DNA of 64,000 bases from positions 7,626,001 to 7,690,000 of the forward strand of contig OZ024756.1 in assembly GCA_964016885.1 (NCBI GenBank), in the 5' to 3' direction. Of the stretch, positions 4,183 to 55,075 are shown in pieces; the first letter of the stretch is position 1; each line of letters starts with the position of its first letter. The stretch is from Eledone cirrhosa. Lineage: Eukaryota. The translations under genes and the position numbers were made by a program. The notes below the pieces were generated by a model. That model saw only the letters and a list, made by a program, of their open reading frames with translations, was not told where the DNA came from and did not search any database.

Positions 4183-4671
4183 AAATTAACAGTGTGTGAC
4201 ACTTTCACGATAAATTTCTTGGGGTAAAATTAAAACTTATTTTTGTTTATATATATATTCGGATCTAGCTGTCGAAACGGCCGGAGCTCAGCCGTCGGGG
4301 TCCTGACTCTTTTCCTTATATAAGTTATTCCGGGTTGCCTCGGTGGTAACCACAGTAAGTAAGGTACTCAAAACATAGCAGAGTATAACAGTTTTAATAT
4401 AGATGAGATTCTACAGGACTAGAACTGTTTCATTCGTGAGAAATAATCAGGAAGCTAACTCTGATGATTTCTCACGAATGAAACAGTTCTAGTCCTGTAG
4501 AAGCTCATATATATATATATATATATATATATATATATACATGGAAAGTTATATTTAAATTGTTGGGTTACAACTAGTAAATATTTATAACTGATATAAA
4601 AGCATTCGACAAATATTTGGAGTATATTTACAATATTAAATAAATGGAAACTATATTTATAAAACCATATT

Positions 4672-4737
4672 TATTTCATTATATATATTTCAGGGATATC
4701 ATATTAACAATATGCTATGCCTTCCTCAGACAAAATA
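4672..4737 (-). ncRNA. Type I hammerhead ribozyme motif
   Basis: Reverse complement of the motif at 4913-4978. Confidence 0.7.
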
Positions 4738-4912
4738 CAATATAAACAGTTTTATAGATAAATAGATTCGACATACCGTAACAACATCGACTTGTATTTG
4801 AAAAGGTTGATTTGTATTTGAAAAGGTTGATCTGCCAAATCAACCTTTTCAAATACAAGTCGATGTTGTTACGGTATGTCGAATCTATTTATCTATAAAA
4901 CTGTTTATATTG

Positions 4913-4978
4913 TATTTTGTCTGAGGAAGGCATAGCATATTGTTAATATGATATCCCTGAAATATATATAATGAAATA
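4913..4978 (+). ncRNA. Type I hammerhead ribozyme motif
   Basis: TATTTTGT-CTGAGGA-[AGG..CATATT/AATATG..CCT stem II]-GAAA-TATATA-TA-ATGAAATA. Stem I pairs, stem III is palindromic, AUA cleavage triplet. Confidence 0.72.
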
Positions 4979-5050
4979 AATATGGTTTTATAAATATAGT
5001 TTCCATTTATTTAATATTGTATATATATATATATATATATATATATATAT

Positions 5051-49470: not shown

Positions 49471-49619
49471 TTTATATATATATATATATATATATATATA
49501 TATATATATATATATATATATATATAAATGAGAGGTATAGAGATTGTTTTAGCGAGAAGCTAATAGTATTCTATAACATATATATATTGCGGTGATAACC
49601 ACAATTCAACAGATATGAC

Positions 49620-52600
49620 CTATAGACATACTAGTCTATTCTATACCAATATAGACACACTAGTATGTTGTGTACTAATATAGACATGCTAGTATGTTGT
49701 GTACCAATATAGTCATACTAGTATGTTGTGTACCAATGTAGTCATACTAGTATATTCTATACCAATATAGACACACTAGTATGGTGTGTACCAATATATA
49801 GACATACTAGTATATTCTATACCAATATAGACACACTAGTATGGTGTGTACCAATATATAGACATGCTAGTCTATTCTATACCAATATAGACACACTAGT
49901 ATGTTGTATATCAATATATAGACATACTAGTATGTTCTATACCAATATAGTCACACTAGTATGTTGTGTACCCATATATAGACACATTAGTATGTTATGT
50001 ACCAATATAGTCACACTAGTATGTTGTGTATCACTATAGACATACTAATATGTTGTGTACAAATATAGTCATACTAGTATGTTGTGTACCAATATAGTCA
50101 CACTAGTATGTTGTGTATCAATATAGACATACTAATATGTTGTGTACCAATATAGTCATACTAGTATGTTGTGTACCAATATAGTCATACTAGTATGTTG
50201 TGTATCAATATAGACACAATAGTTGTCTACCAATATATAGACATAGTAGTCTATTCTATACCAATATAGACACATTAGTATGTTGTGTACCAATATAGTC
50301 ATACTAGTATGTTCTATACCAATATACTCACACTAGTATGTTGTGTATCAATATAGACACACTAGTATGTTATGTACCAATATAGTCACACTAGTATGTT
50401 GTGTATCAATATAGACATAATAGTTGTCTACCAATATATAGACATACTAGTCTATTCTATACCAATATAGTCACACTAGTATGTTATGTACCAATATAGT
50501 CACACTAGTATGGTGTGTACCAATATAGTCACACTAGTATGTTGTGTATCAATATAGACACACTAGTATGTTATGTACCAATATAGTCACACTAGTATGT
50601 TGTGTACCAATATAGTCATACTAGTATGTCGTGTATCAATATAGACACACTAGTATGTTGTGTATCAATATAGACACACTAGTGTGTCGTGTATCAATAT
50701 AGTCATACTAGTATGTTGTGTATCAATATAGACACACTAGTATGTTGTGTATCAATATAGTCATAATAGTATGTTGTGTATCAATATAGACATACTAGTA
50801 TGTTGTGTACCAATATAGTCACACTAGTATGTTATGTACCAATATAGACATACTAGTATGTTGTGTACCAATATAGTCATACTAGTATTTTATGTACCAA
50901 TATAGTCATACTAGTATGTTGTGTATCAATATAGACATACTAGTATGTTGTGTACCAATATAGTCATACTAGTATGTTATGTACCAATATAGTCATACTA
51001 GTATGTTATGTACCAATATAGACATACTAGTATGTTGTGTACCAATATAGTCACACTAGTATGTTATGTACCAATATAGTCACACTAGTATGTTGTGTAT
51101 CAATATAGACACACTAGTATGTTATGTACCAATATAGTCATACTAGGATGTTATGTACCAATATAGTCATACTAGTATGCTGTGTACCAATATAGTCACA
51201 CTAGTATGTTATGTACCAATATAGTCACACTAGTATGTTATGTACCAATATAGTCATACTAGTATGTTGTGTATCAATATAGACATACTAGTATGTTGTG
51301 TACCTATATAGTCACACTAGTATGTTATGTACTAATATAGACATACTAGTATGTTGTGTACCAATATAGTCATACTAGTATGTTATGTACCAATATAGTC
51401 ATACTAGTATATTCTATACCAATATAGACACACTAGTATGGTGTGTACCAATATATAGACATACTAGTATATTCTATACCAATATAGACACACTAGTATG
51501 GTGTGTACCAATAGATAGACATGCTAGTCTATTCTATACCAATATAGACACACTAGTATGTTTTATATCAATATATAGACATACTAGTATGTTCTATACC
51601 AATATAGTCACACTAGTATGTTGTGTACCAATATATAGACACATTAGTATGTTATGTACCAATATAGTCACACTAGTATGTTGTGTATCAATATAGACAT
51701 ACTAATATGTTGTGTACCAATATAGTCATACTAGTATGTTGTGTACCAATATAGTCACACTAGTATGTTGTGTATCAATATAGACACAATAGTTGTCTAC
51801 CAATATATAGACATACTAGTCTATTCTATACCAATATAGACACACTAGTATGTTGTGTACCAATATAGTCATACTAGTATGTTCTATACCAATATACTCA
51901 CACTAGTATGTTGTGTATCAATATAGACACACTAGTATGTTATGTACCAATATAGTCACACTAGTATGTTGTGTATCAATATAGACACAATAGTTTTCTA
52001 CCAATATATAGACATACTAGTCTATTCTATACCAATATAGTCACACTAGTATGTTATGTACCAATATAGTCACACTAGTATGGTGTGTACCAATATAGTC
52101 ACACTAGTATGTTGTGTATCACTATAGACACACTAGTATGTTATGTACCAATATAGTCACACTAGTATGTTGTGTACCAATATAGTCATACTAGTATGTC
52201 GTGTATCAATATAGACACACTAGTATGTTGTGTATCAATATAGACACACTAGTATGTCGTGTATCAATATAGTCATACTAGTATGTTGTGTATCAATATA
52301 GACACACTAGTATGTTGTGTATCAATATAGTCATACTAGTATGTTGTGTATCAATATAGACATACTAGTATGTTGTGTACCAATATAGTCACACTAGTAT
52401 GTTATGTACCAATATAGACATACTAGTATGTTGTGTACCAATATAGTCATACTAGTATGTTATGTACCAATATAGTCATACTAGTATGTTATGTACCAAT
52501 ATAGACATACTAGTATGTTGTGTACCAATATAGTCATACTAGTATGTTATGTACCAATATAGTCACACTAGTATGTTGTGTATCAATATAGACGCACTAG

Positions 52601-54438
52601 TATGTTATGTACCAATATAGTCATACTAGGATGTTATGTACCAATATAGTCATACTAGTATGCTGTGTACCAATATAGTCACACTAGTATGTTATGTACC
52701 AATATAGTCACACTAGTATGTTATGTACCAATATAGTCACACTAGTGTGTTGTGTATCAATATAGACACACTAGTATGTTATGTACCAATATAGTCATAC
52801 TAGGATGTTATGTACCAATATAGTCATACTAGTATGTTGTGTACCAATATAGTCATACTAGTATGTTATGTACCAATATAGTCATACTAGTATGTTGTGT
52901 ACCAATATAGTCATACTAGTATGTTATGTACCAATATAGTCATACTAGTATGTTGTGTACCAATATAGTGATACTAGTATGTTATGTGCCAATATAGTCA
53001 TACTAGTATGTTGTGTACCAATATAGTCACACTAGCATGGTGTGTACCAATATAGTCATACTAGTATGTTGTGTACCGATATAGTCACACTAGTATGTTG
53101 TGTATCAATATAGACACACTAGTATGTTGTGTACCAATATAGTCACACTAGTATGTTGTATACCGATATAGTCACACTAGTATGTTGTGTACCAATATAG
53201 TCATACTAGTATGTTGTGTACGAATATAGTCACACTAGTATGTTGTATACCGATATAGTCACACTAGTATGTTGTGTACCGATATAGTCACACTAGGATG
53301 TTATGTACCAATATAGTCACACTAGTATGTTGTATACCAATATAGTCACACTAGTATGTTGTATACCGATATAGTCACACTAGTATGTTGTGTACCAATA
53401 TAGTCATACTAGTATGTTGTGTACCAATATAGACACTCTAGTATGTTGTGTACCAATATAGTCATACTAGTATGTTGTGTACCAATATAGTCATACTAGT
53501 ATGTTATGTACCAATATAGTCACACTAGTATGTTGTGTACCAATATAGTCATACTAGTATGTTGTGTACCAATATAGACACACTAGTATGTTCTATACCA
53601 ATATAGTCACACTAGTATGTTGTGTACCAATATAGTCTTACTAGTATGTTATGTACCAATATAGTCATACTAGTATGTTATGTACCAATATAGTCATACT
53701 AGTATGTTGTGTACCAATATAGTCATACTAGTATGTTGTGTACCAATATAGACACACTAGTATGTTCTATACCAATATAGTCACACTAGTATGTTATGTA
53801 CCAATATAGTCATACTAGTATGTTGTGTACCAATATAGACACACTAGTATGTTCTATACCAATATAGTCACACTAGTATGTTGTGTACCAATATAGTCAC
53901 ACTAGTATGTTGTGTACCAATATAGTCACACTAGTATGTTATGTACCAATATAGTCACACTAGTATGTTGTGTACCAATATAGTCATACTAGTATGTTGT
54001 GTACCAATATAGTCATACTAGTATGTTGTGTACCAATATAGTCATACTAGTATGTTGTGTACCAATATAGTCATACTAGTATGTTGTGTACCAATATAGA
54101 CACACTAGTATGTTCTATACCAATATAGTCACACTAGTATGTTGTGTACCAATATAGACACACTAGTATGTTCTATACCAATATAGTCACACTAGTATGT
54201 TGTGTACCAATATAGTCATACTAGTATGGTGTGTACCAATATAGTCATACTAGTATGTTGTGTACCAATATAGTCATACTAGTATGTTGTGTACCAATAT
54301 AGTCACACTAGTATGTTATGTACCAATATAGACATACTAGTATGTTATGTACCAATATAGTCCCACTAGTATGTTATGTACCAATATAGTCACACTAGTA
54401 TGTTGTGTACCAATATAGTCACACTAGTATGTTGTGTG
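49620..54438. repeat. 29-bp satellite, ~165 copies
   Basis: Unit ACTAGTATGTTGTGTACCAATATAGTCAC with variants. Confidence 0.97.
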
Positions 54439-54730
54439 TAACTATCCAAATAAAACTGCTTTTATCTACCTACGTTTTCCTTTCTTTTTCTCATCTTTCT
54501 ATCAATTATATATATGTGTGTGTGTGTGTGTGTGTGTGTGTGTGTGTGTGTGTGTGTGTGTGTGTGTGTGTGTGTGTGTGTGTGTGTGTGTGTGTGTGTG
54601 TGTGCATAAACATGTATGTATATATGTGTATAACCAAAGATTAATATGGTTCATTGATTACTCAATGAATACAGTTTTACAATAGATTAAAAGCACTCAA
54701 CAGCTAAAAAAAATGTTCCTGGAATTTTTC

Positions 54731-55075
54731 ATATTATTCAATATATTAACAAATGGAGATATTCACATAATCAAAATATATGCTTTATTATATACATTTC
54801 AGAGGTACTGTGTTGTTTTTTCAGTACGTCCTCGTCAGATAAAATATATAATTTGATATATGACCTACCTCTACGGTTGTTGATATTTCAATTCCAGTAT
54901 TGGCAGTACTGGAATTGAACCATCAAGACCGTTGAGGTATGTCATATATCAAATCATATATTTTATCTGACGAGGACGTACTGAAAAACAACACAGTACC
55001 TCTGAAATGTATATAATAAAGCATATATTTTGATTATGTGAATATCTCCATTTGTTAATATTTTGAATAATATAT
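54731..55075. mobile_element. Palindromic mini-element with paired hammerheads (minus 54783-54846, plus 54959-55021)
   Basis: Arms ~54731-54895 and ~54910-55075. CTGACGA-GGACGTACTG..CAGTACCTCT-GAAA-TGTATA-TA-ATAAAG. Confidence 0.85.

What the first reader, a model, noticed from the sequence alone, without database searches (positions are those of the whole stretch)
4541..55075. Recurrent small palindromic elements carrying two opposite-polarity hammerhead ribozymes inside (TA)n tracts
Seen: four separate ORF-less 350-480 bp elements (4541-5021, 12161-12595, 24341-24740, 54731-55075) made of two 145-185 bp inverted arms, each arm with a complete hammerhead pointing outward, usually one arm ~70-110 bp longer. 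Stem II sequence differs between elements yet stays paired, while TATTTT(A/G)T/AT(A/G)(A/G)AATA stem I, the CUGANGA/GAAA core and AUA site are kept. The same ribozyme ends the Penelope element at 47826. Established: Penelope-like elements carry type I hammerheads in their terminal repeats and often have an inverted 5' repeat; as I recall, the clade with a CxCx5C linker is associated with (TA)n. Inference: these are either extreme truncation products or a non-autonomous family. A transcript from either strand has one sense ribozyme competing with a long hairpin, an ambisense layout reminiscent of viroid-like RNAs and a possible dsRNA substrate for ADAR or Dicer.
Basis: partly seen in the sequence, partly recalled or inferred. 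Interest (0 to 1): 0.75.

Follow-up and report, generated by a model that had tools for sequence, protein, structure and literature searches.

The report
Back-to-back Penelope strong-stop insertions
These small mirror-image ribozyme elements are the shortest insertions of four ordinary Penelope-like jumping-gene families, and their fixed ends suggest that both strands of a DNA cut likely copied the front end of one RNA at once, which would explain how such elements make their inverted copies.

Summary
The four palindromes are real and each carries two outward-facing minimal hammerheads (one damaged). They are not a separate viroid-like family. Each arm is the terminal repeat of a coding Penelope-like element (Hydra-clade motifs) found elsewhere in the genome; arms range continuously from under 50 nt to more than one 3.8-kb unit. 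Three rules emerged from about 180 loci. (1) Arms end at one of two fixed sites, A or B, 83-95 nt apart, and one insertion has one of each (102 A+B, 1 B+B, 0 A+A). (2) Short arms stop at an initiator-like motif (44 of 94 arms within 29 nt of it, 2 upstream, none at the ribozyme cut). (3) Both arms share variants, and start-limited arms never pair with long arms (0 of 44). Best reading, inferred: both target strands prime one uncut RNA at A and B; copies of the leader run off its 5' end and are end-joined. Inverted repeat plus tail, and close opposite-strand hammerheads, are already in print; I did not find these rules in seven searches. The scan noted similar patterns on other DNA. No RNA data were available.

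The parts
4543..4814 (-). E1 left arm: terminal repeat from +6 to end B (with 87-nt tail 4543-4629); hammerhead core 4729, cut 4680
   Evidence: L210
4815..4831 (.). E1 joint: 17-nt templated duplication ending in AT
4832..5021 (+). E1 right arm: from +2 of the initiator-like motif to end A; core 4921, cut 4970
12160..12318 (-). E2 left arm ending at site A; core 12253
   Evidence: L149
12319..12592 (+). E2 right arm from +2 of the initiator-like motif to end B; hammerhead at 12395 with 1-nt deletion in stem I
24343..24486 (-). E3 left arm ending at site A; core 24438
24487..24742 (+). E3 right arm ending at site B (tail 24654-24742); core 24554, cut 24602
54633..54907 (-).
   Evidence: L119
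54908..55068 (+). E4 right arm ending at site A; core 54967
21269..21445 (+). Single arm of the E2 type inside (TA)n, starting exactly at the initiator-like motif and ending at site A; core 21347
45482..47950 (+). 5'-truncated, broken coding Penelope-like copy of a related family, ending after hammerhead 47826
49119..49470 (-). Two E3-like pieces (tail piece 49119-49273, arm 49308-49470 with stem III deleted) separated by (TA)n

Best explanation
Each palindrome is one insertion of a coding Hydra-type Penelope-like retrotransposon made of two head-to-head, 3'-anchored copies of its terminal repeat, likely formed when both strands of a cut (TA)n target primed reverse transcription on the same uncut RNA. 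Shown: two fixed 3' ends (A near +188, B near +275 from the motif), one of each per insertion; a hard 5' limit at an initiator-like motif (TC-ACT); shared variants between arms; a coding parent. Inferred: A and B are the two internal start sites of the reverse transcriptase; the motif is the transcription start; when the leader copy of the repeat is primed, both cDNAs run off the RNA 5' end (strong-stop-like) and their 3' ends are trimmed and joined by microhomology end-joining, giving a 350-480 bp palindrome; priming of a downstream copy of the repeat gives long arms. The two ribozymes are passengers of the repeat; the template of the short arms was neither cut by the ribozyme nor spliced.
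For: Parent: E3 arm continues into a 1.6-kb untranslated stretch and an RT-endonuclease frame; E1 full unit 3834 nt; endonuclease upstream of E4- and E2-type ends; end B continues into a short spacer and the ATG in tandem copies. End rule: 32 A+B, 0 A+A, 0 B+B among 60 pattern-picked E3 loci (15 single, 13 complex); 51 of 51 clean two-arm E1 loci (of 63); 11 A+B and 1 B+B in 30 E2 loci, 8 A+B in 29 E4 loci (counted by eye). 5' limit: 44 of 94 E3 arms start in the 29 nt from the motif, 2 in the 29 nt upstream, 0 within 14 nt of the ribozyme cut; 26 of 100 listed E1 arms stop at -2..+3 (counted by eye); homologous limit in E2 and E4. One template: shared variants 0.46 vs 0.054 per 100 columns across loci, 0 of 1000 permutations; marker 149G concordant in 11 of 11 two-arm loci; start-limited arm with long partner 0 of 23 (E1) and 0 of 21 (E3) against 19 of 28 and 7 of 9 (Fisher p 1.6e-7, 1.8e-5). 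Joints: 17 overlaps, 4 blunt, 13 inserts of 34. In vitro a Penelope enzyme cuts and extends both strands and starts at two internal sites that bound the tail (PMC11167929). D. virilis Penelope starts in the repeat at an initiator with a splice donor 46 nt on (PMC2377424); here GTATGT lies at +39 to +44 in E1, E3 and E4 (sequence).
Against: No RNA evidence for the start site, splicing or cleavage. A cap-derived G before +1 was not enriched. Twelve E1 centres carry an AT before +2 that the genomic motif does not template, unexplained. One B+B locus (L171) and two with a non-standard end (L094, L148). Two RNA molecules from one short source locus would also give shared variants and short-short pairing. 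Loci were picked by exact patterns or top hits, which favours young copies and, for E1, arms that keep +4..+22; the E1 set is 63 loci of a 117-match list, enriched by hand for short ones. Pfam and PDB gave no RT hit for the parent; the call rests on motifs read by eye.
Confidence: 0.68

Rival explanations
1. Short arms that keep the promoter are themselves transcribed and mobilised in trans, so the palindromes are a SINE-like non-autonomous offshoot (same two-strand priming, other source loci).
For: Short arms pair only with short arms; they keep the start motif, ribozyme and both priming sites; one centre recurs in 8 E1 loci; private variants shared by both arms (12 in E1, 7 in E3). Non-autonomous Penelope derivatives are described (bioRxiv 10.64898/2026.07.22.740005; PMC8557442).
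Against: No marker private to short loci: 149G in 6 of 25 short and 6 of 38 long loci, 207C in 8 and 8. The recurrent centre has the tail on either side and sits in both subfamilies, so it is re-made, not inherited. E3 centres are nearly all different.
Confidence: 0.17
2. Two separate RNA molecules on an asymmetric enzyme dimer prime at A and B; cDNAs are then joined.
For: Arms overlap in sequence, which on one RNA needs strand displacement; the enzyme is predicted to be a dimer (PMC11167929).
Against: Independent choice of leader or downstream repeat would give short-plus-long pairs; 0 of 44 seen. Tail-only B arms that stop near A (6 in E3, about 7 in E1) look like collisions on one template (suggestive only).
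Confidence: 0.1
3. One cDNA folds back and copies itself, or the palindrome is a long-read assembly artefact.
For: E1 arms are identical over 186 nt.
Against: Either arm can reach further 5' (B longer in 12, A longer in 20 of 32 E3 pairs, counted by eye); tail-only B arms beside full A arms cannot come from fold-back; fixed A/B ends, templated inserts and unshared substitutions (71 in 3884 columns) are not artefact features.
Confidence: 0.03
4. The palindromes are ambisense, viroid-like RNA replicons with a ribozyme on each strand.
For: Two opposite hammerheads, compensatory changes in stem II.
Against: Centres differ between copies, no tandem palindrome arrays among the loci fetched, cores fully paired in the whole-element fold (mean unpaired probability 0.0 on both strands), and every part is explained by the coding parent.
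Confidence: 0.02

Closest known systems
Complex insertions of endonuclease-bearing Penelope-like elements: inverted 5'-truncated copy plus tail at one end (PMC8557442 Fig. 2 legend, passages; PMC3846280 parts 1-3 of 5)
   Same: Head-to-head arms, tail on one end, terminal repeat with initiator-like TCACT, microhomology joints, (TA)n targets.
   Different: Tail is 83-95 nt, not 30-40; here the rule is counted (one A and one B end) and many insertions hold no coding sequence at all.
Hydra clade of Penelope-like elements (PMC8557442 section 11 and supplement part 2)
   Same: C-terminal endonuclease, CxCx5C linker, DKT, RW(R/K), CxxC and CxH, hammerhead, (TA)n; a cephalopod member is listed.
   Different: Unit 3.8 kb (long untranslated stretch) against mostly under 3 kb; stem III reads GAAAT.. 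palindromic rather than GAAAC..; no tree was built.
Minimal type I hammerheads of Penelope repeats, including pairs 100-700 bp apart on opposite strands in Schistosoma mansoni (PMC4209133 parts 1-2 of 4)
   Same: Same ribozyme design (bulge in stem II, palindromic stem III, dimer-dependent) and the same opposite-strand pairs.
   Different: That paper gives the pairs one sentence and no mechanism.
PAc Poseidon in vitro system (PMC11167929 parts 1-2 of 4)
   Same: Both strands cut and extended, two internal start sites bounding the tail, ribozyme cut not needed.
   Different: It did not link the two sites to one inverted insertion or describe run-off at the RNA 5' end in the parts read; here A and B show 2-6 nt of TA-like match to the target.
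L1 twin priming and retroviral minus-strand strong-stop DNA (recalled, not read)
   Same: Two target primers on one RNA give an inversion; synthesis from an internal site runs off the 5' end.
   Different: L1 arms do not overlap and the second site is not fixed; strong-stop DNA is an intermediate, not an insertion.
Animal non-LTR retrozymes (bioRxiv 10.64898/2026.07.22.740005, part 1 of 5)
   Same: Small, non-coding, type I hammerhead, Penelope-derived.
   Different: Retrozymes are head-to-tail tandems with their own unit; these are head-to-head and are exact pieces of a coding parent.

Membership tests
Penelope-like element, endonuclease-bearing | Single frame with reverse transcriptase and C-terminal GIY-YIG-type endonuclease in the parent | tested here: met
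   588-aa open frame in L043 and one-frameshift frame in L254 with YRDD and endonuclease motifs read by eye; Pfam and PDB gave no hit for this parent
Penelope-like element, endonuclease-bearing | Terminal repeat formed by partial tandem, holding a hammerhead | tested here: met
   Tandem copies L254, L264, L279-L289
Penelope-like element, endonuclease-bearing | Inverted 5'-truncated copy and tail on one end | tested here: met
Penelope-like element, endonuclease-bearing | Retained intron near the start | tested here: inconclusive
   Donor-like GTATGT at +39 to +44 in three families; end B is not an acceptor; no RNA
Hydra clade | CxCx5C linker | tested here: met
   CNCRNKSNC (E3), CNCRDRSKC (E1), CNCRIESNC (E2 type)
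Hydra clade | DKT in place of DKG; N-terminal RWK | tested here: met
   SDKT and RWR (conservative change)
Hydra clade | CxxC and CxH around the endonuclease E and N, CCHH absent | tested here: met
   CDLC and CCRH/CCKH by eye; absence of CCHH judged without an alignment
Hydra clade | (TA)n insertion | tested here: met
   3' ends abut (TA)n in nearly all of 60 loci
Hydra clade | Generally short (under 3 kb) | tested here: not met
   E1 unit 3834 nt; a general trait, not a strict one
Hydra clade | Placement in the RT tree | not tested
   reference proteins were not loaded
Non-LTR retrozyme | Head-to-tail tandem units each with a hammerhead, no coding parent sequence | tested here: not met
   In the first 100 of 167 E3 matches all 15 pairs within 2 kb are divergent, none tandem (counted by eye)
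Minimal type I hammerhead | Core boxes, stems I and II paired, palindromic stem III | tested here: met
Minimal type I hammerhead | Self-cleavage as dimer or with protein | not testable with these tools
   needs a cleavage assay

The most novel reading that the evidence does not exclude
Penelope elements use two RNA pools and the hammerhead is the switch: uncut capped RNA, twin-primed at two fixed sites, yields strong-stop palindromes, whereas ribozyme-cut and ligated circles yield long and more-than-unit arms that rebuild the upstream promoter. Support: at least 5 of 11 more-than-unit E3 copies and L254 run seamlessly past the upstream start motif, no arm stops at the cut site, and no two-unit source was seen among 100 listed E1 matches. 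The palindromes would also be a large standing source of near-perfect double-stranded RNA in introns.
Probability: 0.3. Interest if true: 0.7.

Novelty: new member of a known kind. Interest (0 to 1): 0.42.

Why it matters
How Penelope-like elements make their tandem and inverted repeats is named as an open task in PMC8557442. These young families give countable rules (one A and one B end, a fixed 5' limit, same-template arms) that predict an exact transcription start and a single-RNA twin-priming step, both testable with the existing in vitro system. They also explain a one-line 2014 observation of opposite-strand hammerhead pairs. If transcribed inside introns, such palindromes could feed RNA editing; octopus has an unusually high load of near-perfect double-stranded loci (PMC5625713, passages), but the host here is unnamed and that link is untested.

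Tried and rejected
Rfam: no hammerhead family shown, only repeat-driven microRNA hits. Pfam and PDB: no hit for the parent protein; one weak GIY-YIG hit (E 0.022) for another window element. End B as a 3' splice site: rejected, the element continues ATATAT into a spacer. Ribozyme cut as the truncation point: 0 of 94 arms. Fold-back synthesis: rejected. Shared centre as proof of unit copying: rejected. Cap-derived G at the 5' limit: not enriched, small numbers, and the E2 motif was too loose to count. A-to-I footprint in templates: A>G in 3 of 12 and 0 of 7 private shared variants, no excess. Sequencing runs: no RNA holder listed; contigs of four runs of unknown kind cover the arms but none spans the element, no evidence either way. 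One genome search with an AT-rich E1 stretch found nothing because common words are skipped. Paper searches found no paper with twin priming or strong-stop copies for Penelope; subscription papers (for example Arkhipova 2006, Evgen'ev and Arkhipova 2005) are outside the library, and unread supplements (57 of 59 parts of the PMC8557442 file beyond a keyword search, the bioRxiv files) may bear on this. A look-up of earlier notes by sequence found nothing.
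Full report
Observation. The four elements are in the sequence. Each is two head-to-head arms in (TA)n; arm complementarity runs from about 93% to 100%. A structure scan for type I hammerheads found 7 of the 8 ribozymes plus single ones at 20580, 21347; 47826 was seen by alignment. 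The E2 right-arm ribozyme lacks one base of stem I. Stem II changes between families while staying paired. E4 extends to about 54633, so every element has one arm 83-95 nt longer. The window lies in a 3.0-Gb animal genome; I guessed a cephalopod from size and repeat make-up, which is untested and not needed for the argument.

What the arms are. A search with the E3 long arm gave 40 scored copies at 98-100% identity. Walking upstream from the longest led through 1.6 kb of non-coding DNA into a frame with reverse-transcriptase motifs, a CxCx5C linker and a C-terminal endonuclease. Copies that hold the frame's start show that the arm's far end continues through a short spacer into the ATG. For E1 a whole 3834-nt unit was found; E4- and E2-type ends also have the endonuclease upstream. 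The motifs match the Hydra clade as described in PMC8557442 (section 11), whose supplement lists a cephalopod member. So an arm is the terminal repeat, which is also the 5' leader of the next unit. Copy numbers are lower bounds: 167 exact matches to a 34-nt E3 pattern, 117 to a 19-nt E1 pattern.

Rule 1, two fixed 3' ends. I fetched the first 60 loci of the E3 pattern list. Arms end at A or at B, 87 nt further on. Of 60 loci, 32 are clean two-arm insertions, all A+B; 15 are single arms; 13 are complex or were mis-parsed by low-complexity hits, one of them (L094) with an arm ending 24 nt short of B beside a B arm. Of 63 E1 loci, 51 are clean two-arm insertions, all A+B; the other 12 are single within the stretch fetched or three-part. 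Among top-hit loci, E2 gave 11 A+B and 1 B+B of 30, E4 8 A+B of 29. The same rule holds for 3-4 kb copies. This is the known 'inverted copy plus tail' (PMC8557442; PMC3846280), and in vitro the tail lies between two internal start sites of an enzyme that cuts and extends both strands (PMC11167929).

Rule 2, a hard 5' limit. Of 94 E3 arms, 44 begin in the 29 nt starting at the A of TCC-ACTATCC, 2 in the 29 nt upstream, 2 in the next 29 nt downstream and none within 14 nt of the ribozyme cut. In E1, 26 of 100 listed arms stop at -2..+3 of TTC-ACTGCC and 73 continue with native sequence (one unclear; arms that start after +4 cannot match). E2 and E4 stop at homologous motifs, and the window holds a single arm that begins exactly there (21269). 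The motif fits an initiator (TCACT is called initiator-like in a rotifer Penelope) and is followed at +39 to +44 by a donor-like GTATGT, as in D. virilis Penelope, whose intron starts 46 nt after the start (PMC2377424, passages). I infer a transcription start. No RNA data could confirm it.

Rule 3, one template. The two arms of a locus share variants nine times more often than arms of different loci (0.46 against 0.054 per 100 columns, 28 pairs, 0 of 1000 permutations). In E1 a subfamily marker is concordant in 11 of 11 two-arm loci and is spread over short and long loci alike. A start-limited arm never has a long partner (0 of 23 and 0 of 21). Either arm may reach further 5', and some B arms hold only the tail, stopping near A, which excludes fold-back. 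Joints show short overlaps, blunt joins or templated inserts, as expected of microhomology end-joining (recalled). One E1 centre recurs in 8 loci, but with the tail on either side and in both subfamilies, so it is re-formed each time.

Mechanism. Shown: the parent, the three rules. Inferred: the endonuclease cuts both strands of (TA)n; the two 3' ends prime at A and B of one RNA; the B product usually displaces the A product; if the repeat used is the leader, both run off the 5' end after at most about 190 and 275 nt; host repair trims and joins them. The template of short arms still held the ribozyme and the donor-like site, so it was uncut and unspliced, in line with the finding that cleavage is not needed for insertion and that such ribozymes are weak alone (PMC4209133). 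More-than-unit copies often pass the upstream start motif without a seam (at least 5 of 11 in E3, 1 of 2 in E1). They need a template continuous across it: a ribozyme-made circle as proposed in PMC4209133, a multimer, or a read-through RNA. That is the novel case and is not settled.

The ambisense idea. Folded whole, either strand forms a hairpin of -220 to -299 kcal/mol in which the core is fully paired; a single arm leaves it about 60% unpaired. An RNA from the inferred start carries one arm only, so the hairpin arises only on read-through. Such RNA could be edited (PMC5625713, passages), but I found no A-to-G excess in template-level variants and had no RNA reads.

Against what is known. 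Opposite-strand hammerhead pairs 100-700 bp apart were noted in Schistosoma in 2014; inverted repeat and tail are standard. The counted rules and the single-RNA, run-off reading were not found in seven searches of the open library; older subscription papers were not searchable. Earlier notes of this scan, read after my reading was fixed, report the same mirrored stubs in this genome and strong-stop-like copies in other genomes; they are unchecked and are not counted as support. Verdict: new families of a known kind, with a testable mechanistic clue; interest 0.42.

Noticed in passing
E1-family centres (L209-L252; window 4830-4831): Twelve centres carry AT directly before +2 of the start motif where the genome has CA; may be untemplated addition by the enzyme at the RNA 5' end. 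Not seen in E3.
   Followed up: partly
L254 and L279, tail and spacer before the ATG: By eye, two tail segments are complementary to two spacer segments in crossed order (pseudoknot-like) in both the E1 and E3 families; could mark the enzyme binding site.
   Followed up: no
window 42105-44935: Broken minus-strand Penelope-like copy of another family with inverted ends (about 42105-42290 and 44640-44810, by eye); no canonical hammerhead core found by the scan.
   Followed up: partly
window 5050-6193 and 47965-48400: End of a further Penelope-like family on the minus strand (endonuclease frame 5498-6193); the same end sequence recurs after 47965; both sit in the (TA)n beside another insertion.
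   Followed up: partly
window 20530-20680: Single hammerhead arm of a fifth family, starting near a CACTATT motif.
   Followed up: partly
window 20960-21170: Another (TA)n-inserted short element with an internal hairpin; similar sequence flanks several fetched loci (L005, L160, L164).
   Followed up: no
window 28100-38800, 39100-39800, 58300-61850: Long tandem arrays (about 45-bp, short, and about 60-bp units) that give long repetitive open frames.
   Followed up: no
window 13085-14977: Two fragments that look like the cysteine-rich C-terminus of a non-LTR retrotransposon (recalled resemblance).
   Followed up: no
L074, L006, L023, L051, L056: Independent insertions of these families cluster within a few kb, often in each other's (TA)n flanks.
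   Followed up: no
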